Positions 3,310 to 36,714 of a stretch of DNA of 40,688 nt are shown here, in pieces. The notes below the pieces were generated by a model. The model made no database searches, was not told the DNA's origin, and saw nothing but the letters and a program-made list of their open reading frames with translations. Each line of letters opens with the position of its first letter. Position 1 is the stretch's first letter. Made by a program: the position numbers and the translations under genes. This DNA is from an uncultured Alphaproteobacteria bacterium (GTDB taxonomy: Bacteria > Pseudomonadota > Alphaproteobacteria > Rickettsiales > UBA1997): positions 1-40,688 of the forward strand of contig CAIYMZ010000119.1 of NCBI GenBank assembly GCA_903927415.1, written 5' to 3'.

Positions 3310-5667
3310 CTAACCAAAAAATCCGCGGCGTTTTTTTGGAGCGCCGTCACGATCATCACGATCACGATTTTCACGTCTATCGCCACCGCGGTCATCACGA
3401 TCACGGCCTCCTCTTCTGTCTCCACCGCGGTCATCACGATCACGACCGCCGCCTCTTCTGTCTCCACCACGATCATCACGATCACGTCCGCCAGAACGAC
3501 GATCATCACGACCACCAGATTCTCTTTCGTCAACTATTTGAGGCTTGTTTGGCAAACGATCTGAAATGTCTTCTCCGGTAATTTGATCTACGCAACGGTA
3601 ACTCAATTTCGGACGACCTTTTTTGTCGAAGCCGATGACTTTAACTTTGACGATGTCGCCTTCATTGATGACATCTTCAACGAAATCAACGCGATATTCA
3701 GCAAGTTCAGAAATGTGAATGAATCCATCGCGATTATTTGAAACGCTAACAAAAGCCCCGGCATCGATCACTTTCACAACTGGACCTTCATAGATGTCAC
3801 CAATTTCTGGTTCAAAAGTAATTTCACGAATCATGGCGATAGCCTTCTTAACTGAGTCAGCATTGTTCGAAGAAATTTTGATGAGACCAGTGTCGTCAAT
3901 GTCGACAACTGCACCAGAAACTGAGCAGATTTCTTTGATCACCGCGCCACGTGAGCCAATAACTTCGCGAATTTTCTTTTGCGGGATAGTCATGGTTTCA
4001 ACTTTTGGAACGTTGGCATTGAGCTCTGCTCTAGGCGCGGTCATAACTTCGTCCATTTTGTCCAAGATGTGCAATCTGCCGACATTAGCTTGCTCAAGAG
4101 CGCGCTGCATGATGTCAGAAGTGATGCCGTTAATCTTGATGTCCATTTGCAAAGAAGTGATGCCTGTTCTGGTTCCAGCAACTTTGAAATCCATGTCACC
4201 GAGATGATCTTCGTCACCCATGATGTCAGACAAAATTACGTAATTGTTGCCTTCTTTGATGAGTCCCATCGCGATTCCAGAAACTGGCGCTTTGATTGGC
4301 ACGCCTGCATCCATCAATGCAAGTGAAGCGCCGCAAACTGTGGCCATTGAAGATGAACCGTTTGATTCAGTGATTTCAGAAACGATACGAGTTGAGTAAG
4401 AAAAATTTTCGGCAATTCCGGGGAATACTGGATTTAAAGCTCTCCAAGCCAATTTTCCGTGACCAATTTCACGACGTCCCGGGGCGCCCATGCGACCAGT
4501 TTCACCAACTGAGTAAGGAGGAAAATTGTAATGCAGCATGAAACTTTCTTCATGCATGCCTGGATCCAAGTTTTCGATTAATTGCTTGTCTTTGCCAGAG
4601 CCGAGAGTTGCAACAACAATGGCTTGGGTTTCGCCGCGAGTGAACAAGGCCGAACCGTGAACTTGTGGCAGAAATCCGGTTTCGATGGCGATTTGACGAA
4701 CTTGATCAGTCTTACGACCGTCGATTCTGATGCTGTTTTTCAAAACATCGTTGCGAACGATTTCTTGCGAAAGTGTTTTGAAGATTGATTTGAGTTTATT
4801 GGCGTCAACACCCGCTTCTTCATTGATGAATTTAGCTTTGATGTCGGCAGAAATTTGGTCGAGCTCACCAGAGCGAACTTGTTTAGCTTGCTTTTTGTAA
4901 GCACTGATTAAGCGGTCGCCGATGAAAGAAGTGATTTCGTTTTTGAGCGTAGAATTGTCGATTTTTACAACTTCAATTTTTTGTTTTCCTGCTGCAGATT
5001 TCAATTCATTGATCAAGTCAATTACGGGCTGGAATGCGGCGTGGCCGAAATTTACAGCTTCTAACATTTCAGCTTCAGACAATTCTTTTGCTTCAGATTC
5101 AATCATCAAAACTGATGATTGCGTTCCTGCAACAACTAGGTCTAAGCGACTGTTTTTAAGTTCTTCGGCGCTTGGATTTAAAACAAATTGGCCGTCGATG
5201 TGGCCAACTCTTGCGCCAGCAACAGCTTCCGAGAATGGAGCTTCAGAAATTGCTAGAGCTGCAGAAGCGGCAATGAGAGCAACAACGTCAGGAGTAGAGC
5301 TCGCATCGTAAGAAAGTACGGTGCAAACGACGTTAACTTCATTGTAAAAATTTGATGGGAAAAGCGGACGGATCGGACGATCGATCAAACGAGAGGTGAG
5401 CGTTGCAGCGTCAGATGGCTTAGTTTCGCGCTTAAAAAATCCACCAGGAATTTTTCCAGCAGCGTAAGATTTTTCGAGATAGTTAACGGTGAGTGGGAAA
5501 AAATCCGCACCTTCAGCAGCTTTATTTGCGACAGTTACGGCACAAAGAATTGTGGTATTGCCATATTTTGCGACCACTGATCCGCTTGCTTGGCGCGCGA
5601 TCTTGCCAGTTTCCAGAGATAGAATTTTTCCATTCCAGTTAATTTCTTTTTTTACAACATTGAACAT
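3310..5667 (-). CDS. pnp: Polyribonucleotide nucleotidyltransferase (PNPase) with an unusual ~75-aa Arg/Gly/Asp repeat tail
   Basis: 785 aa. It has two RNase PH domains, then KH (IGSRGAVIKEI-type) and S1 (GDIYEGPVVKVIDAGAFV) domains, and follows rpsO in the canonical order. Confidence 0.97.
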   Translation of the reverse strand: MFNVVKKEINWNGKILSLETGKIARQASGSVVAKYGNTTILCAVTVANKAAEGADFFPLTVNYLEKSYAAGKIPGGFFKRETKPSDAATLTSRLIDRPIRPLFPSNFYNEVNVVCTVLSYDASSTPDVVALIAASAALAISEAPFSEAVAGARVGHIDGQFVLNPSAEELKNSRLDLVVAGTQSSVLMIESEAKELSEAEMLEAVNFGHAAFQPVIDLINELKSAAGKQKIEVVKIDNSTLKNEITSFIGDRLISAYKKQAKQVRSGELDQISADIKAKFINEEAGVDANKLKSIFKTLSQEIVRNDVLKNSIRIDGRKTDQVRQIAIETGFLPQVHGSALFTRGETQAIVVATLGSGKDKQLIENLDPGMHEESFMLHYNFPPYSVGETGRMGAPGRREIGHGKLAWRALNPVFPGIAENFSYSTRIVSEITESNGSSSMATVCGASLALMDAGVPIKAPVSGIAMGLIKEGNNYVILSDIMGDEDHLGDMDFKVAGTRTGITSLQMDIKINGITSDIMQRALEQANVGRLHILDKMDEVMTAPRAELNANVPKVETMTIPQKKIREVIGSRGAVIKEICSVSGAVVDIDDTGLIKISSNNADSVKKAIAMIREITFEPEIGDIYEGPVVKVIDAGAFVSVSNNRDGFIHISELAEYRVDFVEDVINEGDIVKVKVIGFDKKGRPKLSYRCVDQITGEDISDRLPNKPQIVDERESGGRDDRRSGGRDRDDRGGDRRGGGRDRDDRGGDRRGGRDRDDRGGDRRENRDRDDRDGAPKKRRGFFG

Positions 5668-11332: not shown

Positions 11333-12571
11333 TTATTTCAACAAATTCACATGCCCCATTTTCCTCCCCGCGGCAATTTTTTCCTTGCCGTAAAGATGAA
11401 TTTTCGCACGCGGATTTTTGTAAAATTTTTCGAGATTTTTCACCTCGTCGCCGATCAAATTTTTCATCCGACCTTCAGAATGAAACTCGGTTGAACCCAG
11501 CGGCAAGCCAGTAATCGCACGGATCAATTGCTCGAATTGCGAAGTGACGCAAGCATCCATTGAAAAATGTCCCGAATTGTGCGGCCTAGGGGCAAGCTCA
11601 TTCACGAGCAACTCGTCACCAATCACAAAAAATTCCACCGCCAAAATTCCGACCAAATCCAGCTTCTCGACAATTTTTTTAGCAATCGCCTGCGCCTTTA
11701 TTTGCAAGGCTTTGCTGATTTTCGCTGGATAAATACTTTCGTCCAAAATTCCGTTTTTGTGGATGTTGGTGAGAGGTGCGTAAGTTTTGATTTCAGAATT
11801 TTTCGAGCGCGCCACCAACACCGAAATTTCGGAATCAAACGGACAGAATTTTTCGAGGATTAATTCTGGACCCCGCAACAAGTGCGGGGTGACAAGTTGG
11901 GAGTGCGGGGTGACAAGTTGGGAGTGCGGGGTGACACCGAGCGTGAGTTGTGTCACCCCGCACTCCCAACTTGTCACCCCGCACTCCCAACTTGTCACCC
12001 CGCACTCCCAACTTGTCACCCCGCACTTGTTGCGGGGTCCATCGACCAACTGACTCCAAACTTTTTGCACCTCCGCAACCTTCGTCAAAACAAACTGCCC
12101 CTTGCCGTCGTAACCCATTGTCGCGGTTTTCAGAATCGCTTTCCCAAATTTTTTCAGATTTTTTTGCAGATCTTCAAGGCTAAAAATCTCCGCATAATCC
12201 GCCGTTTTCACCCCAATCGAATTAAGAAAATTTTTCTCCAAAATTCGGTGCTGCGTAATTTTTAAAACTTCCGCCCGCGGAAAAAATGAAACCTGCGAAG
12301 CCACGTAATCCACCGTTTCAAACGGAATATTTTCAAATTCAAAAGTTGCAACATCGACCAAATCCGCAAATTTTTTCAGCGCTTTTTTGTCGGAATATTT
12401 TGCCAAAATTGTTTGATTGGTGACAGAACTTGCTGGCGAATTTTTTTGATCGGTAAAAATAACAGTGCGAAATCCCATCGCCTGCGCCGCGAAACAGGCC
12501 ATGCGTCCGAGCTGTCCGCCGCCGATAATTCCCAAGGTTTTAATTGGGGTTTTTATTTTGAAATTTTTCAC
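11333..12571 (-). CDS. purK: 5-(carboxyamino)imidazole ribonucleotide synthase (PurK) carrying an in-frame repeat insertion
   Basis: ATP-grasp PurK motifs are present: LGIIGGGQLGRM, GYDGKGQ, ELAPRPHNSGH, KMGHV. The long ORF runs to 12664 but would overlap rlmE. GTG at 12571 precedes KNFKIKTPIKTLGIIGGG and gives a normal N-terminus. Confidence 0.9.
   Translation of the reverse strand: MKNFKIKTPIKTLGIIGGGQLGRMACFAAQAMGFRTVIFTDQKNSPASSVTNQTILAKYSDKKALKKFADLVDVATFEFENIPFETVDYVASQVSFFPRAEVLKITQHRILEKNFLNSIGVKTADYAEIFSLEDLQKNLKKFGKAILKTATMGYDGKGQFVLTKVAEVQKVWSQLVDGPRNKCGVTSWECGVTSWECGVTSWECGVTQLTLGVTPHSQLVTPHSQLVTPHLLRGPELILEKFCPFDSEISVLVARSKNSEIKTYAPLTNIHKNGILDESIYPAKISKALQIKAQAIAKKIVEKLDLVGILAVEFFVIGDELLVNELAPRPHNSGHFSMDACVTSQFEQLIRAITGLPLGSTEFHSEGRMKNLIGDEVKNLEKFYKNPRAKIHLYGKEKIAAGRKMGHVNLLK
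11868..12040. repeat. Family A composite palindromic element inside purK
   Basis: The terminal hairpin units are ggaccccgcaacaagtgcggggtgac and gtcaccccgcacttgttgcggggtcc. They enclose 2 forward and 3 inverted copies of the 21-bp unit aagttgggagtgcggggtgac around a 16-nt centre. Confidence 0.95.
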
Positions 12572-12643
12572 GAATTTTGATTTCTTGCTTAGAATGGAAA
12601 GGTGCGGGAAGCTAGGAACCGCCTCAACTTTTTCAACAAATTT

Positions 12644-13417
12644 ATGCCGCAAAAATTTCAGCAATTAAAAAAAGCCAAACGCTTAAAAAAATCTTCGCAA
12701 AAATGGTTGTTGCGGCAGGTGAATGATCCATTTGTTGAGAAGGCGAAGATCGAGGGCTGGAGGTCGCGCGCGGCGTTTAAAATTATTGAAATCGATCAGA
12801 AATTTAAAATTTTTAAGCCGGGGAAAGTTGTGGTGGATTTGGGTGCGGCACCTGGCGGTTGGTCGCAATACGCTGTCACAAAAGTTGGCGAGGGAAATGT
12901 GGTTGGGATCGATCTTTTGGAAATCGATTCGATTCCCGGCGTGACTTTTTTGCAGCAGGATTTTTTGGCGGAAGACGCAGCGGAAAAAATAATTTCCGAG
13001 ATCAAAAATCGCCGACGCAAATTCAATGCCAATTCAACGATGGAGTCATCGCAGATGCGTGACCTCCCCCTTATCAAGGGGGCTGGGGGGATGGTTAACA
13101 TTGTCCTCTCTGACATGGCCGCGAACACCACGGGAGATCACCAAACTGACCATATGCGAATCATTGCGCTGCTCGAAGAAGCGTTAATTTTGGCAGAAAA
13201 AATTTTGAAAGAAGGCGGAGTTTTTGTCGGAAAAATTTTTCAGGGCGGAAGCTCGAATGAGATTTTGAAGAGACTGCGGGAAAGTTTTTCTGTCGTAAAA
13301 TATTTTAAACCTGACTCGTCACGGAAGGATTCGAGCGAAACTTATTTGGTGGCGGTGGGATTCAAATCTAAGAATTTTGCGGCGGAAATTCGGAAGGAAA
13401 TTTTGCGGAAAAGTTGA
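12644..13417 (+). CDS. rlmE: 23S rRNA (uridine2552-2'-O)-methyltransferase RlmE/FtsJ with in-frame repeat insertion
   Basis: Motifs WLLRQVNDPFV, GWRSRAAFK, VVDLGAAPGGWSQ, LSDMAANTTG. The ATG at 12644 (MPQKF...) is preferred over 12602, which overlaps purK. Confidence 0.9.
   Translation: MPQKFQQLKKAKRLKKSSQKWLLRQVNDPFVEKAKIEGWRSRAAFKIIEIDQKFKIFKPGKVVVDLGAAPGGWSQYAVTKVGEGNVVGIDLLEIDSIPGVTFLQQDFLAEDAAEKIISEIKNRRRKFNANSTMESSQMRDLPLIKGAGGMVNIVLSDMAANTTGDHQTDHMRIIALLEEALILAEKILKEGGVFVGKIFQGGSSNEILKRLRESFSVVKYFKPDSSRKDSSETYLVAVGFKSKNFAAEIRKEILRKS
13045..13096 (+). repeat. Family B double-hairpin element inside rlmE
   Basis: gtcatcgcagatgcgtgacctcccccttatcaagggggctggggggatggtt aligns with the copies at 21825-21883 and 23082-23132 (both inverted). 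Confidence 0.85.
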
Positions 13418-21543: not shown

Positions 21544-22242
21544 TCACGGCCGCCAATTTAAAAAGTTTTTGAGTAATTTTAATCCCGCCTCGCCACTTTT
21601 CTCGGGATGAAATTGCGCACCGAAAATATTTTCCTTCGCCACAATCGCGGTGAGTTTTTCGCCATATTCTACTTGGGCTAAAACATTATTTTCATTTTGA
21701 CAGATGAAGTGAAAAGAGTTGGCAAAGTAAAAATGTTCGCCGTCTTTGATGTCTTTTAAAACCGCATGTTTATTGGGCTTCACGATGATGTTATTCCAAC
21801 CCATATGCGGGATTTTTAACTTAAAACCACCTCCCATCCCCCTAGATAGGGGGAGGTCACGCTGCGCTGCGCTGCGCGATGACATTTGTTCTGAATTAGC
21901 TCCGATTTTTTCGACATGGCCATTGATAAAACAAAGCCCCTGATGCTCACCATTTTCATATCCCACCGACGCCAAAACTTGCATGCCAACACAAATTCCG
22001 AGGAAAGGTTTTTTCTCGGTTAAAACTTGTTTTCTTAATTCTGGCAGCAGCCCTTCAATTGATTTTAAGCCTTCAACACAATCACCGAAAGCACCTACTC
22101 CTGGAAGGATTAAATGATTTGCAGATTTGAGATCAGCGGGATTATTTGAGACCAAAATTTCATCATCCCCTTTGAGCAAAAACAGGGCATTTAAAACAGA
22201 TTCAACATTGCCCGCACCGTAATCGATAACGACTATTTTCAT
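21544..22242 (-). CDS. hisH: Imidazole glycerol phosphate synthase glutamine amidotransferase subunit with in-frame repeat insertion
   Basis: Motifs MKIVVIDYGAGN, LPGVGAFG, GICVGMQ (catalytic Cys), PHMGWN, QFHPEKS. Confidence 0.9.
   Translation of the reverse strand: MKIVVIDYGAGNVESVLNALFLLKGDDEILVSNNPADLKSANHLILPGVGAFGDCVEGLKSIEGLLPELRKQVLTEKKPFLGICVGMQVLASVGYENGEHQGLCFINGHVEKIGANSEQMSSRSAAQRDLPLSRGMGGGFKLKIPHMGWNNIIVKPNKHAVLKDIKDGEHFYFANSFHFICQNENNVLAQVEYGEKLTAIVAKENIFGAQFHPEKSGEAGLKLLKNFLNWRP
21825..21883 (-). repeat. Family B double-hairpin element inside hisH
   Basis: The reverse complement gtcatcgcgcagcgcagcgcagcgtgacctccccctatctagggggatgggaggtggtt aligns with the rlmE copy. Confidence 0.85.
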
Positions 22243-22694
22243 GCGTGGCGCGGTTTTAATTTCATCATTTTGCGGTGAAGTTTTGGATTCAGAATTGAGT
22301 CGTCAAAATCGTCTGCACTCAGCTTTTGATCGGCTTCAAGATTTTTAATAAAACGCAATTTAGCGCTGGCACAATCATCGCCAAAAACCAATCCAACAAA
22401 TTCATAATTTTTCTTCTTGAGATGCTCGCAGAGCCAGTAATTGGCGTTGAGCGCAATGATGAAGATGAAAGCGATTTCTAGAGAAATTTTGTCGAAATCG
22501 GAAGAAATTTTACTAAAAGAAACGAAGGCAACATTGATCAACAGGATCATCAAAAACTCTTTCCACATCTTGTAGTAAAGAAACCACAGCCCGCTAAAAA
22601 AAAATGCTGCCCAAGAAAATCCTTCCTTGAGCAGCACAACGTCTTCGATTTTTCCGGCGGAATTTTTTTTAATTAAGGCGTTGAAAATTTTCAT
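22239..22694 (-). CDS. DUF2628-type small membrane protein
   Basis: 151 aa. VVLLKEGFSWAAFFFSGLWFLYYKMW resembles the DUF2628 core as I remember it from alphaproteobacterial his loci. Confidence 0.6.
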   Translation of the reverse strand: MKIFNALIKKNSAGKIEDVVLLKEGFSWAAFFFSGLWFLYYKMWKEFLMILLINVAFVSFSKISSDFDKISLEIAFIFIIALNANYWLCEHLKKKNYEFVGLVFGDDCASAKLRFIKNLEADQKLSADDFDDSILNPKLHRKMMKLKPRHA

Positions 22695-27230: not shown

Positions 27231-28256
27231 ATGAGTAAATTAATTAATACTCTTCTTAAAAAAGAGAGTTTCGAATCACCGCCGATTTGGATCATGCGTC
27301 AAGCTGGAAGATATTTACCAGAATATCGCGAAGTGCGTTCAAACGTAAAAAATTTTCTCGAGCTTTGTTACTCACCAAAACTTGCAAGCGAAGTCACATT
27401 GCAGCCAATCCGTCGATTTGATTTTGACGCTGCGATTATTTTTTCCGACATTCTTGTAATCCCAGACGCGCTCGGCGTGAAAGTCGAATTCGTAAAAAAT
27501 GAAGGACCGAAGCTCGGAAAATTTGAATTGTCGCAGCTTAAAACAAATCGCATCGCATCGCATTTAAATCCAGTTTTCGAAGCGCTAGCGCTCACAAAAT
27601 CAAAACTTGATCCCTCGAAGGCTTTAATCGGTTTTTCCGGCGCTCCGTGGACTTTAGCCTGCTACATGATCGAAGGTGGTGGATCAAAAAATTTTGAACT
27701 AACGCGTCAAACTGCAATCCAAAATGAAGATTTTTTTTCACAGCTGATTAAAATTTTAACTCAAAGCGTGACCGAATATTTATCGTTGCAAATCAAGGCT
27801 GGAGCGGATTGCGTCAAGTTGTTCGATTCTTGGGCGGGAGTTTTACCATCGCAGCAATTGCAAAAATGGGTGATTGAACCAACTAAAAAAATCGTCACTG
27901 AAATAAAAAAACTTCACCCAGAAATTCCGGTAATTTGCTTCCCACGTGGTATCGGAATGAATTACAAAACATTCTCACGAAGCGTTATGCCTCACGGTTT
28001 GGCAATCGATCAAACAATCGAAAAAAATTGGGCTAAAAAAAATCTCGGACAAGTGCTGCAAGGAAATCTCGACAATTTTCTTCTCGCTTTTGGCACAAAA
28101 AAACAAATCGAAAAAGAAGTTTTGGAAATTTTGGAGATATTTAGAAACCAACCATTCATCTTCAATCTCGGTCATGGAATTTTGCCGGAAACGCCGATTG
28201 AGAATGTGGAGTTGGTGGTAAAACTAATAAAACAAAAAAGGAGAAATTATGTCTAG
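27231..28256 (+). CDS. hemE: Uroporphyrinogen decarboxylase
   Basis: 341 aa with the PPIWIMRQAGRYLPEYR signature and the DSWAG and GHGI motifs. Confidence 0.95.
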   Translation: MSKLINTLLKKESFESPPIWIMRQAGRYLPEYREVRSNVKNFLELCYSPKLASEVTLQPIRRFDFDAAIIFSDILVIPDALGVKVEFVKNEGPKLGKFELSQLKTNRIASHLNPVFEALALTKSKLDPSKALIGFSGAPWTLACYMIEGGGSKNFELTRQTAIQNEDFFSQLIKILTQSVTEYLSLQIKAGADCVKLFDSWAGVLPSQQLQKWVIEPTKKIVTEIKKLHPEIPVICFPRGIGMNYKTFSRSVMPHGLAIDQTIEKNWAKKNLGQVLQGNLDNFLLAFGTKKQIEKEVLEILEIFRNQPFIFNLGHGILPETPIENVELVVKLIKQKRRNYV

Positions 28257-29976
28257 AGTTCAAGTTCAAACACAGCATCAACATCAAGACCAAATAACTC
28301 CAATAGCAGTAAGTTTTGAATATGCGGCAAATGGAAGACATAAATTTCCAGAGCAAGTGGGTGGAAGTTTTTATGAGGGCGGTCATCTGGATAATAAATT
28401 TAAAAAATTAGCCCAACAGGATAGAAATTGGTTTCATAGATTCGCAAGTGCCAGTGGAAATATACCAAATGCGCAGAAAGTTGAAGGATTAGAGGTAATT
28501 GAAGAGATTAGAAAAACGGACCCAGAAAAACTGAAAGAAGCATTGGGACAAAAAGATAAGTTTGGTTGGAAGCCAATGCATTATGCGGCATGGTGTGGAA
28601 GTGACTCGGCATTGGAATCATTGGTGAGTGCGAGTGGCGAAGTTTCTGATCAAGATATGGGAAATATGCTCTTTTTAGCGATGGCAAATAACAGAGCGGC
28701 TGCAAATTTTAAAAAATTAACCGAAATTTGCGCAAGGTCTGGGAGACATCCGGAAGAATATTTTTTTACTGACGGAAGTTTACCGGAAGAGTTGGCTGGA
28801 GCTGGTCTTGGTGGAGCTGCTGTCGTTAGAGGTGGCGGAGCTGCTGCTGGAGGTGGTGGTGAAGGAGCTGCTGCTGGCGGAAGATTAGTTTGTACTAAAA
28901 ATTTATTAGATATAGCGGCGGAATATGGCAATGTGGAGGTCATGGAATTTCTTTTAAATAGAGGAAGATTGTCGATCGATGGAATGACTGATGTTCCAGT
29001 TGTGGATCAAAGACATTCAAAGCCTATGGACGAAAACAATCCAAAAATGATCCGAGGAAAATTTTCAAGCTTCGATAAAAGCCCGCTATATCTAGCAACT
29101 AAAGGGCTTCATGTTGAGGCTGTAAGATTTTTAATTGCAAAAATTGAAGAGAGAAATGGGGGAGAGGCTGTAGAAAGATACGTTGCTCAAAGGATGCACG
29201 ATAGAAGTGATTTTGGAAATGGTGGAGACATAGTAAGTCTAGCTGCACTAGCTGCCAGAGAAGGATTAAAATGGTGGAATAATGTTGACGAAGAACATTC
29301 GTCGCATGACAAAAAAACTCGCGATCAATTTAAGGAAAATGCAAAGGAAGGATTTTTTGATCCGGCTGGGTATCATTATGCTCGATTTAGCCCAGAGGGT
29401 GCGACCGAAACAGCGAGAGTTTTACTGCATGTTGCAACGCCAGAGATTACAATTTTTCCGTTTTTATATCCAAAGGAGGAGGTGATAAGGGAATGTGTCA
29501 TCCCAGAGAGAGTCGAGGCCTATCGAATGCCAATACTCATGGAGGCGTTATTTGCTACGGCTAATTCTTCTCCACTTACCAAGTTCAAGTTAAGTCGTGA
29601 TCGTGAGCCATATCCAAACATTCAGTTATTGGCGGAATTGCTTCAAATAAAACCAGAGAAAGAAAAATCCCTATCAGACATTGCGCTACTTGCAGTTTTA
29701 ACAGCAATACCAGGCATGGATACTGACGATGAAAGAGCTGTGCGGGCAATCGAAGAAGTGATAAATGACAACAATACTCTCAAAGATTTTACCCCAGAGT
29801 TTCGGGGACGTGTTCGCGACGATATAGCAAAATATGCGAAAGCGCAGATCGAAAAAATAAGATCCGAAGGTGGCGGAGCTGCTGCCGTTGCTCCATCAGG
29901 AGAAGTTGCGGCTGCAGGAGGTGCTGTGCTTGATGATGGAGGTGTAGAACAAGTAGGGAAAGACGGAAGAAGTTAA
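28249..29976 (+). CDS. Ankyrin-repeat protein with Gly/Ala-rich tracts (effector candidate)
   Basis: 575 aa with an AAGGAG SD at 28238-28243; the ATG overlaps the hemE stop (ATGTCTAG). ANK-like units are GWKPMHYAAWCGSDSALESLV, LLDIAAEYGNVEVMEFLLNRG and SPLYLATKGLHVEAVRFLI. Low-complexity tracts are GGAAVVRGGGAAAGGGGEGAAAGG and GGGAAAVAP..AAAGGA. Confidence 0.8.
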   Translation: MSRVQVQTQHQHQDQITPIAVSFEYAANGRHKFPEQVGGSFYEGGHLDNKFKKLAQQDRNWFHRFASASGNIPNAQKVEGLEVIEEIRKTDPEKLKEALGQKDKFGWKPMHYAAWCGSDSALESLVSASGEVSDQDMGNMLFLAMANNRAAANFKKLTEICARSGRHPEEYFFTDGSLPEELAGAGLGGAAVVRGGGAAAGGGGEGAAAGGRLVCTKNLLDIAAEYGNVEVMEFLLNRGRLSIDGMTDVPVVDQRHSKPMDENNPKMIRGKFSSFDKSPLYLATKGLHVEAVRFLIAKIEERNGGEAVERYVAQRMHDRSDFGNGGDIVSLAALAAREGLKWWNNVDEEHSSHDKKTRDQFKENAKEGFFDPAGYHYARFSPEGATETARVLLHVATPEITIFPFLYPKEEVIRECVIPERVEAYRMPILMEALFATANSSPLTKFKLSRDREPYPNIQLLAELLQIKPEKEKSLSDIALLAVLTAIPGMDTDDERAVRAIEEVINDNNTLKDFTPEFRGRVRDDIAKYAKAQIEKIRSEGGGAAAVAPSGEVAAAGGAVLDDGGVEQVGKDGRS

Positions 29977-30988: not shown

Positions 30989-31792
30989 TCAAGATTGGCG
31001 ACATAGATATGAAATTTTTTTCAACGGATTTTTGATTGAATAAAAGGCTAGAAAAAAATCTAAATTTAGATGGATTTTATTCAGGTAGAAACGCATCAGA
31101 TTTTTTTGGTTAAGCTCGTATGGATGAATGTAGATCACCGGCTTCACCCGCTCATTTTCCAATTTCTTGAATAAAACTTTTTGCAGCAATAGCGGCAAAA
31201 CGCGCAAATAAAACCCTCCGCTAAAAGGAACGCCGCATTTTGGTAAAGGAATTTCAGTAATATTTCCAAATTTTGTTTCCACTTCAAACGGCAATTTTTT
31301 ATCTTCACTTTGACCATACATGTAAGTTTTAAACGGCATGTATGAGGATGAAAATGAATAGCCATTTTTTGCCAAAATTTCGTAGTAAGAATTTTCAAAA
31401 GGCATCGACCAGCTAGCAGCTCTGTAACCTCCAATCTCCCTCCCAGTCAAATCTTCAAGTATTGTTTTTGCTTTAACGATTGATTGCTCCCACTCATCTA
31501 AACTGATTTTATAAACCAAGCGATGGTCGAAACCATGTGAAGCAATTTCAAAATCAGCGTCACTTAATTTTTTAATAATCTTCGGATATTTTTGAGCGAA
31601 GCTTCCCAGCACAAAACAGGTCGATTTCATTTTTAACTTAGCACAGAACTCAATCCAATTGTCGATCATCTTCTCGTAATCCACATCACTAAAATCCGGT
31701 CTTGGCAATAAATTAAAATTACTGTCGAGCAATTCCTCTACATCAAGAGTGAGCCAAATTTTATTTTCTTCGTAAACCGAACTTACCGTCAT
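30989..31792 (-). CDS. Polysaccharide deacetylase (CE4-like)
   Basis: 267 aa with LTLDVEE (Asp motif 1) and ASHGFDH (His-His motif 2). Its ATG overlaps the stop of the upstream GMC gene (ATGA). Confidence 0.8.
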   Translation of the reverse strand: MTVSSVYEENKIWLTLDVEELLDSNFNLLPRPDFSDVDYEKMIDNWIEFCAKLKMKSTCFVLGSFAQKYPKIIKKLSDADFEIASHGFDHRLVYKISLDEWEQSIVKAKTILEDLTGREIGGYRAASWSMPFENSYYEILAKNGYSFSSSYMPFKTYMYGQSEDKKLPFEVETKFGNITEIPLPKCGVPFSGGFYLRVLPLLLQKVLFKKLENERVKPVIYIHPYELNQKNLMRFYLNKIHLNLDFFLAFYSIKNPLKKISYLCRQS

Positions 31793-33397
31793 AAATTTTT
31801 CTCTTTGATTGCAGAGATCAAATTTTTAGCAATGCGATCTGCATTAGCCATTATTGTAAAACTGTGTGGCTTGGCTGGAAGAGTCGTGAGCGCAGCACCA
31901 TCAACTACGTAAATTCCTAGCATTGCCGCCACTTCACCATCCTTGGTTAATTCGTATTTTTTTGTTGGATTCTCTCTCATTTTTAAAGTTGCCGCGTAGT
32001 GAATATCTTCACCTAACTCGGTTAATTTAAAACTTCCCGGCAGCATAAATGCACCATAGAACATCATAGTTTTTGTTAGGCGTTTTTTTATATCTTTGAC
32101 GACATCAAGAATGCCATCTTGGTAAGCACCATTAATTTGCATTTTTCCGGCAGAATTAATTTTTATTTTACTCGCCGAATAATCACCGCTTAAAAAACAA
32201 TTTCCTAAAATCATTGATGGCTGTAGCGCCAAAATGATCTTTCTTGCAGCCGGATAGGAGAAAGGAACATGATGAATATATTCCGAAGACAATATCGCAT
32301 CAGCAGGAAAAAGACTGGCTAGCGCGTAATTTTGTGGTTTTTTTTGTTAGCAATCACTAAGGAAATTTGTCCGGTGGAAAGCACTTTATTTTCTACTTTT
32401 GATCCCAAACGCTCCGGCATAAAAAATGCAAATCCCGCAGCAGGATTGGTCACCAGATCAATCTCTTGATCGTAAATTTTTAAAGCATCCAGAACCAGTC
32501 TGGTCGTAGCAATCGCACCTAACGCTAGAATTATTTTTTTTCCCGAAAATTTTACTCTTGTCGAATTTTTCTCATCCTCACCACTTAGCTCGTATAAACC
32601 ATCAACACCACTTTCCAATTTATCAATAAACACACTGCTGATATAGTAAAAATTGGGATATTTTTTTAGCTTCTCTAAATCAAATCTTGCCGAATAAATT
32701 GATTTGTTGGCACAACCCCAAACACATAGGCCAGAATAGCTACAAGCTTCTCTTTCTTCTTTTTTTCACTCAAAACCGCAATTCTATTGCGACCAATTTT
32801 AATATCGTTGCTATTGGCAAATTGAGGATTTTTTTGGTAACGATTTAATATTTTTTTTGCGTTACAATTAATCTCCGTAGCACTCTGTAATTCAATTCCA
32901 TTGCCATGAAATTCAGAAACATCATCATTTTTAACGCCGCTGACTCCGATACGCTTTGCCACATCTTGGTAAGATTTTTCCAGATCAGATTTTGTGATTG
33001 GAAATTTTTCTAAATCCACTTCATCAAAACATCCAACCCCCGCACCCCAAGCATTAGAAAGACCCCCAGCAGCAAGTGATCCCGATAAAATAAAGTTATT
33101 AGTCTCTGGCTGATATTTTTCGTGGTAGTCGGCAAAAATATATTTATTGGTTACTGCACGTAACTTGGGAGAAGAGGATGAAATTTTTTCCCAATCATCA
33201 AGATTATCAAAAATAGGATTCGACTCAGATTTAGTGCGCAAATCAAAATAAGTGGAGCCTTTCTTGAGTGAATTTTTTTGTTCATTGCCGAAATCAATCA
33301 TCACAACTTTTAACCCAGCTTCGATAAGAGGGAATGCAGCTGAAACTCCAGAATGACCACTGCCAACAATGATTACATCTTGATTAAATATGGTCAT
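31789..33397 (-). pseudogene. GMC-family FAD oxidoreductase split into three ORFs by two frameshifts at poly-A tracts
   Basis: The N-terminal piece has IIVGSGHSGVSAAFPLIEAGLKVVMIDFG (the FAD GxGxxG motif). The C-terminal piece has a GMC-like ...VVDGAALTTLPAKPHSFTIMANADRIA. The three frames join at A7 (32760-32766) and A8 (32338-32345) to give about 536 aa. Confidence 0.8.
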
Positions 33398-34641
33398 GCG
33401 GCGGATTTTAAATTACGCAGAAACTTTGTGATGATGCCCATAAAAATTAGCAGAAACTCAAACGACATCATCAAGACAATCTTCAGCGTCGCTTTAACTA
33501 ATCCGATTTCTTTGAATGGAATAAACTGTGACGAAGCTTTGGAATCGCTTTCAGCAATTATCAAAGCCAGTTTCAGACGTCGATCCAATTCATTTTTATT
33601 TGCAAATTTTTGTAAAAAAATTGGGCTGCGCGGATCAATCAATCGTAGTAAAACCGGACAGCTTAAATATATTTTAGAAATTCGCAGCGGCCCTGCTGAA
33701 GTCATTGCTTTGACATATTTTTTAGCAAAAAATTTATTATGTTTTGCGCCAGAAACATATTGCATCAGTGCTTTTCCCTCAAGAAGTAATCTCTTTCTTG
33801 ATACTAATTCACCACTCTGAAGACCATCCTTTAAATTTCTTAGATTAAAATTCTCATCAACTTTCATAACTCGCAAAGCCAGCAATCCATTGACACGCTC
33901 AGGATCAATAATTTTGATAAAACCTGCAAAACGTAAAAATAAATGTGGCAAAGGAATTAAAATTAAATGTCGCCAAAATTTGTACCACGCCAAATTTTGT
34001 AAAAATTCTGTAATCGCAATCGGATTTCTTTGTGCAATATTATGTTGAGATTTTGTTTGACCGCTGATCACCAAGCTCAGTAATACCTTGCTCAAATCTT
34101 CAACATGAACCGGCTGAACATAAATCTTTGGTAAGAATTCCGGCAAGATTGGCAAGATTTTTGCCAATTTACAAAAAGTACCGAAAAGCGCGTGCTCCTC
34201 TTCGCCATAAACCAATCCAGGACGCACAACAATGCCGTTATTTTTCAACACCTCTTCTTCAAGCAGATATTTTCTGTACCCGTAATTAGTTGGGGAATTT
34301 TTCGATGCGGATTGACTGGAAATAAAAATGAAATTTTTTATTCCATTTTTTTGCACCTCCTCCAGCAAATTTTTTAAAGCGAACAATTCGAGATCGATGA
34401 CTTTCTGATTCGATATTTGTGAATTAGTAACCGTAGCAAGATGTATTAGTGCATCCACCATTTCGAAAGAACGAGAATCTGGAATAGAATCAAGATCGTA
34501 GTGAAAAAAATTTAAACCATTTTTATCACAACATGCCGCTTTATTTCTGACTAAAGCGTTAACCTTAAAACCTTGCTGTAAAGCTGATTTTACTAGAGAT
34601 TTTCCGATATAACCATTAGCGCCAGTGATGGCTATTTTCAT
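33394..34641 (-). CDS. Extended SDR (NAD-dependent epimerase/dehydratase/reductase fold) with about 120-aa C-terminal extension ending in a hydrophobic helix
   Basis: MKIAITGANGYIGKSL Rossmann motif, a YGYRK (YxxxK) catalytic motif, and the C-terminal LKIVLMMSFEFLLIFMGIITKF. Confidence 0.75.
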   Translation of the reverse strand: MKIAITGANGYIGKSLVKSALQQGFKVNALVRNKAACCDKNGLNFFHYDLDSIPDSRSFEMVDALIHLATVTNSQISNQKVIDLELFALKNLLEEVQKNGIKNFIFISSQSASKNSPTNYGYRKYLLEEEVLKNNGIVVRPGLVYGEEEHALFGTFCKLAKILPILPEFLPKIYVQPVHVEDLSKVLLSLVISGQTKSQHNIAQRNPIAITEFLQNLAWYKFWRHLILIPLPHLFLRFAGFIKIIDPERVNGLLALRVMKVDENFNLRNLKDGLQSGELVSRKRLLLEGKALMQYVSGAKHNKFFAKKYVKAMTSAGPLRISKIYLSCPVLLRLIDPRSPIFLQKFANKNELDRRLKLALIIAESDSKASSQFIPFKEIGLVKATLKIVLMMSFEFLLIFMGIITKFLRNLKSAA

Positions 34642-34941
34642 TTTTTTGAATCTTTGAACACAACGTAACGAACTAATAAAAAGCTAACTCCTACACAAGA
34701 AATATCTGATAAAATTTTTGCCAGCCATTCTTCAGAAAACTTCGACAAAACGATTAAGATCAAAGATCCCAGCGCCATATTTACAAATAACATTGCGACA
34801 TAGCGAAAAATTTCACCCAATATTTATGCAATTGGATAAAACAAGGTGCACACCAATTTTTGCGATCAACATAAAAGTTGAAAACTCTAAAGCGTAAGCT
34901 GCGACTTGGACCAAATTGTAGCGCACAAATTTTGCCAACAT
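34638..34941 (-). pseudogene. GtrA-like small membrane protein, interrupted by a 1-nt frameshift
   Basis: The N-terminal half, MLAKFVRYNLVQVAAYALEFSTFMLIAKIGVHLVLSNCINIG*, runs from 34941 to 34813. The C-terminal half (ORF 34638-34820) reads ..GEIFRYVAMLFVNMALGSLILIVLSKF...LLVRYVVF. Deleting one G of the GGG run (34816-34818) fuses them into about 100 aa. Confidence 0.65.
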
Positions 34942-35750
34942 TACTTTCGCCTTAGAACAATAATATGATGCAGAGCAAAAATTTTTAACATTGGAGTCAG
35001 GCAGAATTCCAGTAATTTTATTGGACCCTCAGCACGTCTCGGCACCAAGGTTTTAAAATTAAGACCACCCGACAAAAGATATCTTAAGTAATTGGTTAAA
35101 GGCCTTTGATAGACTATCTCTAGCTCTTTAAAATTTTTTTTAAAAATCTTCCGATCGCGCTCAAAAATTATGTAGCTAAGGGCCTGATTTGGCTTGTCAT
35201 TTTCAGCAATATTCCATTCTCCATTCTTGTTAAAATCTTCTGCGGAAAATAAATGCTTAAACAGAAAACTTGCCACAAGCCCGTAATAAGGCTCAATCAA
35301 AATTGCAACTCCCCCAGATGCTAGTACGCGTTCTAACTCATTAAAAAATTTTGATGGCTCAGGAAAATGATGGAAACAATTTTGTCCGTAAATCGCTCTA
35401 ACGCTGCCAGAATCAACGTCCATATTTAATGCATCTAACACTCTATCTAAATGATCAGCTTCAACAATATCTGTTGCTAAAACCTGCGGATAAGAATTTT
35501 TTATCGGATAAACACCAGCTCCAAGTTCAATGGAAATACCTTGGGCATTAATCGAATATTGTTGATCAAGATTTTTGATTTCGTGATGAAATTCTTCAAA
35601 AACATGTCTTAAAATTGGTTTACGATTCAGAGCCTGCTTGTGTAGAGTCAATCGGTTCAAGGCATTGGGATTAAGATTCATCATTCCTTTTTCACACAAG
35701 CTGTCGCGTAACCAATTCAAAAGTTTTATTATTTTAAGATCTCTTTTCAT
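34941..35750 (-). CDS. Class I SAM-dependent methyltransferase
   Basis: 269 aa with SIELGAGVYP (motif I) and a Methyltransf_11-like post-I/II region ...CFHHFPEPSKFFNELERVLASGGVAILIEP. Confidence 0.75.
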   Translation of the reverse strand: MKRDLKIIKLLNWLRDSLCEKGMMNLNPNALNRLTLHKQALNRKPILRHVFEEFHHEIKNLDQQYSINAQGISIELGAGVYPIKNSYPQVLATDIVEADHLDRVLDALNMDVDSGSVRAIYGQNCFHHFPEPSKFFNELERVLASGGVAILIEPYYGLVASFLFKHLFSAEDFNKNGEWNIAENDKPNQALSYIIFERDRKIFKKNFKELEIVYQRPLTNYLRYLLSGGLNFKTLVPRRAEGPIKLLEFCLTPMLKIFALHHIIVLRRK

Positions 35751-36714
35751 CTAGATGGATTAGTAGCGGCGTTTGTGGAGTAATTGTAACGTCGTAATTG
35801 ATGAAAGATAAAATTAGCTGCATACCTAAAATAATTGGAAGAGTAGCAATCATCACCACGCCGCTTGAGGAAAATCTATTGTGATAAGCAGATTCTATCC
35901 AGGCGCTGGCCCCATAAATTGCGCCAAAAGATGTCGCCGCCACTCCTACAACCAAACAAACTGAAGCAAAGGAGAAGTCTTTGATGTAGTAGTTGTAAGC
36001 TATGCGCTTCAACGTATTGCGTAAATGCTTGGATAAAAATGGCATGACGATTTTTTTGATCGAGAGATTGCTAACTTCGCTGCCGTAATTTGCCTTCATC
36101 GGCACATCGACTACCACAGCACGAATGATGTTTAAACGAAACAAAATATCTGATTCGAAGAAATATCTTCCGTCGATCTTGTCCAAAGCCATACATTTTA
36201 TGACGTCAGTATGTATTGCGGTGTATCCATTGGTTGGGTCAAAAACATTCCAATAGCCTGAAGAAAGTTTGGTCAAGAATGATAAAATCGCATTGCCAAT
36301 CAAGCGCACGCGAGGCATTGACATCACGTCATCCGGATTAAAGAAGCGATTTCCCTTGGTGTAGTCAGCTCTTCTTTTAATGATTGGAGCAACAAACTGA
36401 TGAATTAATTTTGGATCCATTTGGCCATCGCCATCCACCTTCACCACAATATCAATTTCATCTTTGATGGCCTCTTTATAGCCCCGCATTGTGGCACCGC
36501 CAACGCCAAGATTTTTTTCGTTGTAGATTACGCGAACCCTTTCATCTCGACAGTTTTCTTCTACGTATTTCCCGGATTCATTCGGACAGCAATCGTCAAC
36601 CACATAAATCATACTCACCTCGCTACCAATCTCTTTGATTACGCCCAAAATATGAGATTTAACTTTGTAGCAGGGAATAATAACGCCAATTTTTTCTTTG
36701 GGTTTTGCAGTCAT
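35734..36714 (-). CDS. Family 2 glycosyltransferase with two C-terminal TM helices (GtrB/ArnC/polyprenyl-phosphate sugar synthase type)
   Basis: VIIPCYKV, VVDDCCPNESG and VKVDGDGQMDP (DxD) motifs, plus C-terminal helices FASVCLVVGVAATSFGAIYGASAWI and VVMIATLPIILGMQLILSFI. Confidence 0.85.
   Translation of the reverse strand: MTAKPKEKIGVIIPCYKVKSHILGVIKEIGSEVSMIYVVDDCCPNESGKYVEENCRDERVRVIYNEKNLGVGGATMRGYKEAIKDEIDIVVKVDGDGQMDPKLIHQFVAPIIKRRADYTKGNRFFNPDDVMSMPRVRLIGNAILSFLTKLSSGYWNVFDPTNGYTAIHTDVIKCMALDKIDGRYFFESDILFRLNIIRAVVVDVPMKANYGSEVSNLSIKKIVMPFLSKHLRNTLKRIAYNYYIKDFSFASVCLVVGVAATSFGAIYGASAWIESAYHNRFSSSGVVMIATLPIILGMQLILSFINYDVTITPQTPLLIHLDEKRS

What the first reader, a model, noticed from the sequence alone, without database searches (positions are those of the whole stretch)
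31789..33397. GMC oxidoreductase broken twice, both times on canonical -1 slippery heptamers (A_AAA_AAG and A_AAA_AAC) and both needing the same -1 / plus-one-A correction
The three ORFs 32675-33397, 32319-32633 and 31789-32292 are consecutive pieces of one GMC flavoprotein in three frames. At the first junction the coding strand reads agt gaa aaa aag aag (A7, plus-strand T-run 32760-32766). A -1 shift there gives ...RIAVLSEKKEEREACSYSGLCVWGCANKSIYSARFDLEKL..., which continues without a stop into the second ORF. At the second junction it reads aac aaa aaa aac cac (A8, T-run 32338-32345). A -1 shift there gives ...SLVIANKKKPQNYALASLFPADAILSSEYIHH..., joining the third ORF. In the zero frame the motifs are A_AAA_AAG (the heptamer used by E. 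coli dnaX) and A_AAA_AAC. Possible explanations are homopolymer under-calling in the assembly, a true decaying pseudogene, phase variation, or rescue by transcriptional or ribosomal slippage. The last was reported for poly(A) tracts in AT-rich endosymbionts (Tamas et al. 2008, PNAS). Many other A7-A8 runs in the housekeeping genes of this window do not break their frames. That argues weakly against pure sequencing error.
Basis: partly seen in the sequence, partly recalled or inferred. Interest (0 to 1): 0.6.

Follow-up and report, generated by a model that had tools for sequence, protein, structure and literature searches.

The report
Twice-frameshifted flavoprotein gene, a recent pseudogene
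A sugar-oxidase-like flavoprotein gene in an uncultured lake alphaproteobacterium is split by two single-base losses, and because near-identical unbroken and once-broken copies exist in other assemblies it looks like an ordinary accessory gene caught while decaying, not a programmed frameshift.

Summary
The three minus-strand ORFs are colinear pieces of one ~536-aa GMC-like FAD enzyme, with one base missing at each junction.

- **The breaks are in the DNA.** An independent assembly of run X4 has the same letters across both junctions. The pieces are on record from several contigs.
- **Other allele states exist.** The same 90% protein cluster holds two intact 536-aa alleles. It also holds two 281-aa forms that start after junction 1 and read through junction 2.
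- **The states are nested.** Intact, then junction 1 broken, then K461E, then the window allele with junction 2 broken plus K276E and R288K.
- **Junction 1.**
- **Junction 2.** The intact allele reads NKKNPQ, not NKKKPQ. The lost base is therefore the C (or T) after the A8 run, not an A.
- **The slippery heptamers are not special.** There are 68 in-frame A_AAA_AAN sites in 29 intact window ORFs.
- **No frameshift stimulators.** Junction 1 has no stimulatory RNA fold, and a tRNA-Lys(CUU) is present.
- **The operon is dispensable.** It was not found in the 43 other species genomes of the genus searched.

Best reading: a recent, strain-level pseudogene (0.7). Phase variation, leaky slippage and artefact are minor rivals. 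Interest is low.

The parts
32759..33397 (-). Piece 1, homologous part: residues 1-213 of the flavoprotein. It carries the N-terminal FAD-binding GxGxxG motif, here GSGHSG, with P15H relative to the intact allele.
   Evidence: ORF list; Pfam FAD-binding hits at residues 7-41; alignment to homologues; 213 of 213 residues aligned to P0247 with one difference.
32675..32758 (-). Out-of-frame tail of piece 1: 27 codons plus the TAG stop, not homologous to the family.
   Evidence: The tail KEKLVAILAYVFGVVPTNQFIRQDLI has no counterpart in the homologues.
32760..32766 (-). Junction 1: A7 run on the coding strand, forming GA_A_AAA_AAG in the zero frame. One base (A or G) is missing here or at 32759 relative to the intact alleles.
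   Evidence: Sequence; the frame of piece 2 opens at 32765 directly after a TGA; intact alleles read SEKKEEREAC.
32337..32765 (-). Piece 2, homologous part: residues 212-354, including the invariant Cys triad region CSYSGLCVWGC. The annotated ORF starts at the GTG at 32633.
   Evidence: 143 of 143 residues aligned; differences K276E and R288K.
32338..32345 (-). A8 run next to junction 2 (zero frame AAC AAA AAA AAC). By the protein evidence the run itself is probably unchanged.
32336..32337 (-). Junction 2 proper: CC, where the intact alleles (…NKKN-PQNY…) require the last base of an Asn codon plus CC of CCA. One C (or T) is missing.
   Evidence: Sequence compared with P0247, P0249, P0243 and P0248.
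32319..32336 (-). Out-of-frame tail of piece 2 (HKITR plus TAG).
31789..32337 (-). Piece 3: residues 355-536, the C-terminal GMC-type domain with the HYA and MANADRI motifs. Its stop TGA at 31789-31791 overlaps the ATG of the next gene.
   Evidence: GMC_oxred_C, E=0.0033, below the cut-off; (one difference, K461E).
33394..34641 (-). Upstream gene: a 415-aa SDR/epimerase-like protein whose stop overlaps the flavoprotein start. It is the conserved partner of the family.
   Evidence: Pfam Epimerase; found directly upstream in 72 of 80 related loci.
30989..31792 (-). Downstream gene: a polysaccharide deacetylase (XrtA-system type, DUF3473), start-coupled to piece 3.

Best explanation
This is a real, recent pseudogene of an accessory GMC-like FAD oxidoreductase. 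The gene sits in a strain-specific, low-GC envelope-glycan or glycolipid operon of an uncultured freshwater alphaproteobacterium.

Two successive single-base deletions broke it:
1. One base was lost at the A-run at 32760-32766, most likely A8 to A7. This separates the FAD-binding N-terminus from the rest.
2. In a descendant lineage, one C (or T) was lost just 3' of the A8 run, at 32336-32337.

Shown: the breaks, their positions, and the existence of intact and once-broken alleles.
Inferred: the order of events, that the losses arose by replication slippage, and that the product is lost. Any full-length protein could arise only as trace leakiness needing two independent slips.
For: - **One gene, two one-base deficits, no other lesion.**
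- **The same letters in an independent assembly.** In run X4, 4 of 4 laid records had 0 other letters and 0 gaps. The 946-nt record bridges junction 2. The 178-nt record bridges junction 1 with 31 nt on its short side.
- **The pieces are on record elsewhere.** The exact 240-aa piece is on 3 contigs. The 104-aa piece is on 4 contigs (M start) plus 2 contigs (V start).
- **Other allele states in the same cluster.** The 8-member 90% cluster holds two intact 536-aa alleles (P0247, P0249). It also holds two 281-aa forms (P0243, P0248) that begin at the first start codon after junction 1 and read through junction 2.
- **The states are nested with the substitutions and show no homoplasy**:
  - P0247 is intact.
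  - P0243 is identical to P0247 over residues 257-536.
  - P0248 adds K461E.
  - The window adds K276E, R288K and the junction-2 break.
  - The window also has P15H in the GxGxxG loop.
- **The gene is dispensable in the genus.** Piece 3 was found in 1 of 44 genus genomes, G000 only. The neighbouring methyltransferase was found in 1 of 44. The DNA was found in 1 of 31 relatives. GC is 0.36-0.37 here against about 0.41-0.48 elsewhere in the window.
- **The assembly is not error-ridden.**
  - 74 A/T runs of 7 or more in 29 other window ORFs are in frame.
  - Broken-ORF geometry occurs at 105 of 8604 run positions (1.22%) against 392 of 40000 random positions (0.98%).
  - Among 27 other candidates with A/T runs of 8 or more, 0 split one Pfam family. 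19 are ordinary gene boundaries, 7 are undetermined and 1 is an IS.
Against: - That the 281-aa forms are broken at junction 1 is inferred from their start at the internal GTG.
- Whether junction 1 lost an A or a G is open.
- Only one of the four runs laid gave contigs, at depth 2.8-5.5, and it may be the sample the MAG came from. Within-sample length heterogeneity was therefore not tested.
- The other three genes of the conserved module are intact in the window. This fits very recent loss, but also continued need for the pathway.
- Apart from the two shifts the gene has no stop and keeps all invariant family residues.
Confidence: 0.7

Rival explanations
1. Phase variation. The A-run at junction 1 is a contingency tract whose length flips between in-frame and out-of-frame, switching an envelope-tailoring enzyme ON and OFF in the population. 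Junction 2 is a later lesion that locked this lineage OFF.
For: - Both an in-frame and an out-of-frame state at junction 1 exist among alleles about 99% identical.
- The gene lies in a surface-glycan type operon, the classic place for such switches (established knowledge).
- In X4 the contig bearing junction 1 has about half the depth of its neighbours, 2.8 against 5.5.
Against: - The junction-1 state follows the SNP background in a nested series that needs only one event.
- An A7/A8 run is not special here. The genome has 4302 A/T runs of 7 or more and this gene has 9.
- The tract lies 40% into the gene.
- A second, non-tract lesion has already accumulated.
- Low depth alone explains the contig breaks.
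Confidence: 0.1
2. Functional rescue. Ribosomal -1 frameshifting on A_AAA_AAG and A_AAA_AAC, or RNA-polymerase insertion of an A in the A7 and A8 runs, restores enough full-length enzyme, so selection tolerates or maintains the gene in this form.
For: - Both junctions carry zero-frame X_XXY_YYZ heptamers.
- A -1 reading gives the native sequence at junction 1, and the native sequence with one N to K change at junction 2.
- The rest of the gene and its three module partners are intact.
- Junction 2 has a modest downstream hairpin (z -2.0, 6 of 200 shuffles).
- Frameshifted genes rescued by slippage are reported in Buchnera and Blochmannia (passages read in PMC3017870, and PMC5009743).
Against: - Two independent slips multiply, so the yield would be tiny.
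- Junction 1 has no downstream fold (z +0.83, 154 of 200 shuffles fold as well).
- I saw no AGGAGG-like upstream element when reading.
- A tRNA-Lys(CUU) exists. Recalled, not checked here: the high shiftiness of A_AAG in E. coli depends on having only tRNA-Lys(UUU). PMC5009743 says only that about half of bacteria have a single tRNA-Lys.
- In E. coli A_AAA_AAC is much less shifty than A_AAA_AAG (PMC5009743).
- Transcriptional insertions rise exponentially with run length, and Traverse and Ochman found no case that restored a reading frame in Buchnera (PMC5574713). The review speaks of runs of 9.
- The frameshifts are not conserved, because intact alleles exist. The 101 full-length relatives listed are 402-562 aa long.
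- 68 equal heptamers sit in intact ORFs of this window.
Confidence: 0.06
3. Assembly or sequencing artefact. The true DNA has one more base at each site and the gene is intact in this organism.
For: - Both sites are at or beside homopolymers.
- The genome is a 175-contig metagenome bin.
- Intact alleles about 99% identical exist.
- Only low-depth contigs, not raw reads, could be inspected.
Against: - A second assembler gave identical letters for run X4.
- The pieces are recorded from several contigs and sources.
- An intermediate allele exists with only junction 1 broken.
- Junction 2 is a loss in a run of 2-3 C, not in a long homopolymer.
- The window allele also differs by four substitutions, so it is a distinct haplotype.
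- 74 of 74 other runs in the window are in frame. 0 of 27 other long-run candidates in the genome split a family.
Confidence: 0.05

Closest known systems
[quoted passage not shown]
   Same: - Single-base indels at or beside A runs in an otherwise intact gene.
- A small (about 1.5 Mb), A-run-rich genome.
- Sister lineages keep the intact gene.
- Further lesions follow the first.
   Different: - The host here is an uncultured lake alphaproteobacterium at 41% GC, not an insect endosymbiont.
- The tracts are short (7-8).
- One lesion lies just outside the run.
- The gene is an accessory, probably horizontally acquired, envelope gene.
Slippage-rescued frameshifted genes (Tamas et al. 2008; Wernegreen et al. 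2010; neither read here, both cited through PMC3017870 and PMC5574713)
   Same: A -1 deficit next to poly(A), with the rest of the gene intact.
   Different: - Those frameshifts lie inside the tract (the one tract length I read is 11 A's), are conserved between populations or species, and often affect essential genes.
- Here the tracts are A7 and A8, the second lesion is a lost C or T, intact alleles coexist, two corrections are needed, and the gene is dispensable in the genus.
E. coli dnaX programmed -1 frameshift site (A_AAA_AAG with stimulators; PMC5009743 passages, stimulator details recalled)
   Same: The same heptamer, in the same phase, at junction 1.
   Different: - No stimulatory downstream fold at junction 1.
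- No Shine-Dalgarno-like element seen upstream.
- A tRNA-Lys(CUU) is present.
- The site is not conserved in relatives.
GMC-type FAD sugar dehydrogenases and oxidases with solved structures (FAD-glucose dehydrogenase 6a2u_B, pyranose 2-oxidase, cellobiose dehydrogenase flavodomain)
   Same: - The family profile matches them: 6a2u_B E=5e-13, 1kdg_A 3e-12, 9fl2_A 1.5e-10.
- An N-terminal FAD motif and a C-terminal HYA/MANADRI region are present.
- A conserved Cys cluster (C219, C225, C229 invariant in A2) lies in the stretch aligned to the glucose dehydrogenase.
   Different: - The match is distant. Pfam GMC_oxred_C is below its cut-off on the window piece, and GMC_oxred_N appears in the precomputed Pfam listing of only 1 of the 101 listed relatives.
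- The substrate is unknown.
- The family sits in a conserved GT2 / methyltransferase / SDR module that I could not match to a described pathway.

Membership tests
GMC-like FAD oxidoreductase superfamily | N-terminal Rossmann FAD-binding motif GxGxxG | tested here: met
   Residues 7-41 hit Pyr_redox_2 and FAD_binding_2/3. G12 and G14 are invariant in A2. The window has GSGHSG.
GMC-like FAD oxidoreductase superfamily | C-terminal GMC_oxred_C domain with the conserved His region | tested here: inconclusive
   Piece 3 hits PF05199 at E=0.0033, 18.4 bits, below the 24.6 cut-off. Many relatives carry PF05199 in precomputed hits. The profile matches GMC enzymes in the PDB over positions 462-531. H467, Y468 and A469 are invariant.
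Pseudogene (recent, strain-level) | Reading frame disrupted relative to intact orthologues or alleles | tested here: met
   Two -1 deficits against the 536-aa P0247 and P0249 and against full-length homologues of about 530 aa.
Pseudogene (recent, strain-level) | The lesions are in the DNA, not an assembly error | tested here: met
   Identical letters in Logan contigs of X4 across both junctions. The pieces are recorded on several contigs. Raw reads were not seen.
Pseudogene (recent, strain-level) | Loss of expression or function of the full-length product | not testable with these tools
   No RNA or proteome data could be laid on the locus.
Programmed -1 ribosomal frameshift site | Slippery X_XXY_YYZ heptamer in the zero frame | tested here: met
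   A_AAA_AAG at junction 1 and A_AAA_AAC at junction 2. However, 68 such heptamers occur in 29 intact window ORFs.
Programmed -1 ribosomal frameshift site | Stimulatory downstream RNA structure or upstream Shine-Dalgarno-like element | tested here: not met
   Junction 1 has z +0.83. Junction 2 has z -2.0 (6 of 200 shuffles), which is modest. No AGGAGG-like motif was seen upstream by reading.
Programmed -1 ribosomal frameshift site | The frameshift requirement is conserved among relatives | tested here: not met
   Intact near-identical alleles exist. The 101 listed relatives are 402-562 aa long. All 80 genomic loci kept matched on most of the query, at least residues 73-527.
Slippage-rescued poly(A) frameshift (endosymbiont type) | Indel inside a long A/T tract | tested here: not met
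   Junction 1 is an A7 tract. At junction 2 the lost base is a C or T after the A8 run. The literature read speaks of runs of 9 and of a tract of 11 adenines, and reports an exponential dependence on run length.
Slippage-rescued poly(A) frameshift (endosymbiont type) | The frameshift is kept across populations or species without further decay | tested here: not met
   A nested series from intact to one break to two breaks plus substitutions.
Phase-variable contingency locus | Tract-length heterogeneity that is independent of the genetic background | tested here: inconclusive
   Both states exist, but they are linked to SNPs in a nested order. Per-read data were not available.
Phase-variable contingency locus | The tract is unusual or over-represented for the genome | tested here: not met
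   The genome has 4302 A/T runs of 7 or more in 1.545 Mb, and 2.6 per kb in the window's ORFs.

The most novel reading that the evidence does not exclude
The double-frameshifted allele is not dead. Junction 1's A-run acts as a population-level ON/OFF switch, and/or leaky -1 decoding on the two A-runs still supplies a trickle of enzyme. This would tune an uncharacterised, widely conserved GT2 / methyltransferase / SDR / flavoprotein envelope-tailoring module in an uncultured, possibly host-associated freshwater alphaproteobacterium.
Probability: 0.08. Interest if true: 0.5.

Novelty: new member of a known kind. Interest (0 to 1): 0.17.

Why it matters
- **Annotation.** The three ORFs should be one pseudogene, not three genes. 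The 'slippery heptamer' coincidence should not be read as recoding in an A-run-rich genome.
- **A small natural example of gene erosion.** Intact, once-broken and twice-broken alleles of one accessory envelope gene coexist among lake populations.
- **A method caution.** Representative-based searches hid the intact alleles, which showed up only in the cluster member list.
- **A by-product for others.** The conserved four-gene module around this flavoprotein family may be worth a separate look.

Tried and rejected
- **Metagenome scans.** Records near the window's genome may be left out there. The DNA of the intact and 281-aa alleles was therefore never seen.
- **Laying reads.** Runs X1, X5 and X6 gave 0 laid contigs, which the tool says can be false. 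Only X4 was informative. No raw reads were available, so per-read run lengths could not be counted.
- **RNA.** No RNA holder was listed, so nothing can be said about expression.
- **The 'longer' homologue search.** Its best hit was 61% identical, which at first suggested that no intact near-identical allele exists. That was wrong. The intact alleles sit in a cluster whose representative is the 281-aa form.
- **ORF geometry alone.** It cannot tell frameshifts from gene boundaries. I therefore added a random-position control and a Pfam check, restricted to the 27 other candidates with runs of 8 or more out of 105 candidate strand-runs. The 77 A7-run candidates were not checked by Pfam.
- **Contig ends in X4.** I considered reading them as a variant bubble at junction 1. 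I rejected this because the boundaries do not fit k=31 expectations and low depth explains them.
- **Tamas et al. 2008 (PMC2567471).** The paper is not held. It is cited only through other papers' passages.
- **Not run.** I did not predict the structure or a complex, because neither would discriminate between the readings.
Full report
**What is there.** On the minus strand of the window, three ORFs (33397-32675, 32633-32319, 32292-31789) lie in three different frames.
- Read from stop to stop, the second frame opens at 32765, directly after a TGA. The third opens at 32346, directly after a TAA. The first and second frames close at 32675 and 32319.
- The only productive places for a frame change are therefore the A7 run at 32760-32766 with its next few bases, and the 28-nt stretch 32319-32346 that holds the A8 run at 32338-32345.
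- A search with the third piece found 101 full-length relatives of 402-562 aa. The best is 61% identical.
- In alignment A1 the three pieces follow each other on these relatives without gap or overlap.
- Pfam sees the N-terminal FAD-binding motif in piece 1 and a sub-threshold GMC_oxred_C match in piece 3.
- A profile of the family matches FAD-glucose dehydrogenase, cellobiose dehydrogenase and pyranose oxidase among solved structures.

**The decisive evidence: other alleles.** Exact look-up of the pieces in the protein collection showed that they belong to an 8-member 90% cluster. That cluster also holds two intact 536-aa proteins (P0247, P0249) and two 281-aa proteins (P0243, P0248).
- Against P0247 the window's pieces cover residues 1-213, 212-354 and 355-536. 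They differ only by P15H, K276E, R288K and K461E.
- The 281-aa forms begin with M at the GTG that is the first start codon after junction 1. They run through junction 2 to the normal end. I read them as broken at junction 1 and intact at junction 2. This is an inference from the start site, because I could not see their DNA.
- The states are nested. P0247 is intact, and P0249 is intact with S254N. P0243 is identical to P0247 over residues 257-536. P0248 adds K461E. The window adds K276E, R288K and the second break.
- One event per step explains everything, which is what progressive decay predicts.
- A further record, P0102, also carries the junction-1 out-of-frame tail.

**What the intact alleles say about the lesions.**
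The missing base is the third base of a Lys codon (A or G). A8 to A7 is the likelier event, but this is not shown.
- At junction 2 they read ANKKNPQNY, not ANKKKPQNY.
- In the window the Asn codon of piece 2 (32339-32337) and the Pro codon of piece 3 (32337-32335) share base 32337. The lost base is therefore the C (or T) after the A8 run, and the window has CC at 32336-32337.
- 'Both need the same plus-one-A correction' does not hold. A -1 slip on A_AAA_AAC would give a protein with N354K.

**Is it in the DNA?**
- Sixteen listed runs from 8 studies of lake or fresh water hold the stretch or part of it. Nine hold at least half of its sampled words.
- Of the four runs laid, only X4 gave contigs. 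All 4 records matched with 0 differences and 0 gaps.
- One 946-nt record bridges junction 2. One 178-nt record bridges junction 1 with 31 nt on its short side. Depths are 5.5 and 2.8.
- X4 may be the source sample, so this excludes an assembler error but not a sequencing error.
- Several points argue against a sequencing error:
  - The second lesion lies in a run of two to three C.
  - The allele is a distinct haplotype.
  - An intermediate allele exists.
  - The 74 other A/T runs of 7 or more in 29 ORFs of the window are all in frame.
- Genome-wide, broken-ORF geometry is barely more common at runs than at random positions: 105 of 8604 (1.22%) against 392 of 40000 (0.98%).
- Of the 27 other such candidates with runs of 8 or more, 0 split one Pfam family. 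Nineteen are plain gene boundaries, 7 are undetermined and 1 is an IS orfA/orfB junction. The 77 candidates at A7 runs were not checked this way.

**Is it programmed or rescued?** The heptamers are real but carry little information.
- An A8 run gives A_AAA_AAN in every phase, and an A7 run in two of three.
- 68 such in-frame heptamers occur in 29 intact ORFs of this window.
- Downstream of junction 1 the RNA folds no better than shuffles (z +0.83). Downstream of junction 2 there is a modest hairpin (z -2.0, 6 of 200 shuffles).
- The genome encodes tRNA-Lys(CUU) as well as tRNA-Lys(UUU).
[quoted passage not shown] That a second tRNA-Lys lowers shifting is my recollection.
- For transcriptional slippage, Traverse and Ochman (PMC5574713; one section and passages read) report three things:
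  - Insertions rise exponentially with A/T run length.
  - G and C runs do not slip.
  - No case in Buchnera restored a reading frame.
- The Blochmannia paper (PMC3017870, passages) describes the rescued class as frameshifts inside homopolymer tracts that are conserved among populations or species without further degradation.
- Here the tracts are short, one lesion lies outside the tract, intact alleles coexist, and two independent corrections would be needed. I could not read Tamas et al. 2008 itself.

**Context.**
- The gene sits between an overlapping 415-aa SDR/epimerase-like gene and an overlapping polysaccharide deacetylase gene. They are part of a run of minus-strand genes: GT2, methyltransferases, a GNAT-like protein, FabG-like and FabH-like proteins.
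- The family occurs in 475 stretches of species-representative genomes of many phyla.
- In the 80 loci kept, the epimerase-like gene lies directly upstream in 72, the 269-aa methyltransferase in 44 and the GT2 in 38. The last two counts are limited by the 4-kb flank. It is a conserved module of unknown product.
- In this genus, neither piece 3 nor the methyltransferase was found in the 43 other species genomes searched. The DNA was not found in 30 relatives.
- The region's GC is lower than that of the rest of the window.
- The operon is therefore an accessory, probably acquired, island. That is a setting where loss of one gene is unsurprising.
- The organism is an uncultured freshwater alphaproteobacterium of about 1.5 Mb.
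- It has hints of host association (an ankyrin-repeat protein, an Ehrlichia-type family hit) and at least one more candidate pseudogene (coaBC with an in-frame TAG).

**Verdict.** This is a real, ordinary, recent pseudogene, caught at the two-lesion stage while intact and one-lesion alleles persist (confidence 0.7). Minor rivals are phase variation at junction 1 (0.10), leaky or selected slippage rescue (0.06) and artefact (0.05). Open points are the DNA of the other alleles, per-read run lengths, and any RNA or protein evidence.

Noticed in passing
G000:C106:15299-16603 (+); stop at L110:1108-1110: A coaBC-like gene (Flavoprotein + DFP domains) carries an in-frame TAG (…KNLTL*LEKNPDILEFVG…). 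The same frame runs on for 97 codons. There is also an insertion of about 40 aa in the DFP domain. It may be a nonsense pseudogene of CoA synthesis, or a strain variant or error.
   Followed up: partly
G000:C175:2827-3437 (L109), A8 run at C175:3092-3099: An IS4/5-type orfA (DUF4096) ends, and a second frame opens, at an A8 run. This is a candidate IS orfA/orfB -1 frameshift site, the one place in this genome where a programmed shift on an A run is plausible (family behaviour recalled).
   Followed up: no
window 33394-36714 and loci L003-L082: A conserved module GT2 -> 269-aa methyltransferase -> 415-aa SDR/epimerase-like -> GMC-like flavoprotein. The epimerase-like gene is upstream in 72 of 80 loci, the methyltransferase in 44 of 80 and the GT2 in 38 of 80. 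The product is unknown. In L012, L013, L026 and L049 the FabH-like, SDR and 357-aa genes are nearby too.
   Followed up: partly
P0247 residues 219-229 (window 32717-32749, minus strand): C219, C225 and C229 are invariant in the family (A2). They lie in the stretch that aligns with FAD-glucose dehydrogenase 6a2u_B. That enzyme's Cys-rich region binds an Fe-S cluster (recalled, not checked), so this family may carry one.
   Followed up: no
window 28249-29976 (+) and 22239-22694 (-): A 575-aa ankyrin-repeat protein, and a 151-aa protein that hits the Erum7620/ECH_0207 'putative T1SS effector' family (E=1.3e-10, below its cut-off). Together with the 1.5-Mb genome these hint at a host-associated lifestyle.
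   Followed up: no
window 12602-13417 (+) and 11333-12664 (-): RlmE (271 aa) and PurK (443 aa) each match their family models in two separated stretches, which implies in-frame insertions. The rlmE insertion was not examined.
   Followed up: no
P0102 (267 aa, from a 1628-nt contig): The same junction-1-broken N-terminal piece, but with 43 unrelated, signal-peptide-like residues in place of residues 1-18. This is either an assembly chimera or a rearranged copy.
   Followed up: no
window 32729-32906 in run X4: The contig that bridges junction 1 has about half the depth of its neighbours (2.8 against 5.5) and is flanked by uncovered gaps. This could be low coverage or strain heterogeneity and is not resolvable from contigs.
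   Followed up: partly
window 3310-5667 (-): PNPase is 785 aa, but the family model ends at residue 691. There is a C-terminal extension of about 95 aa, and an A7 run (3331-3337) sits just before the stop.
   Followed up: no
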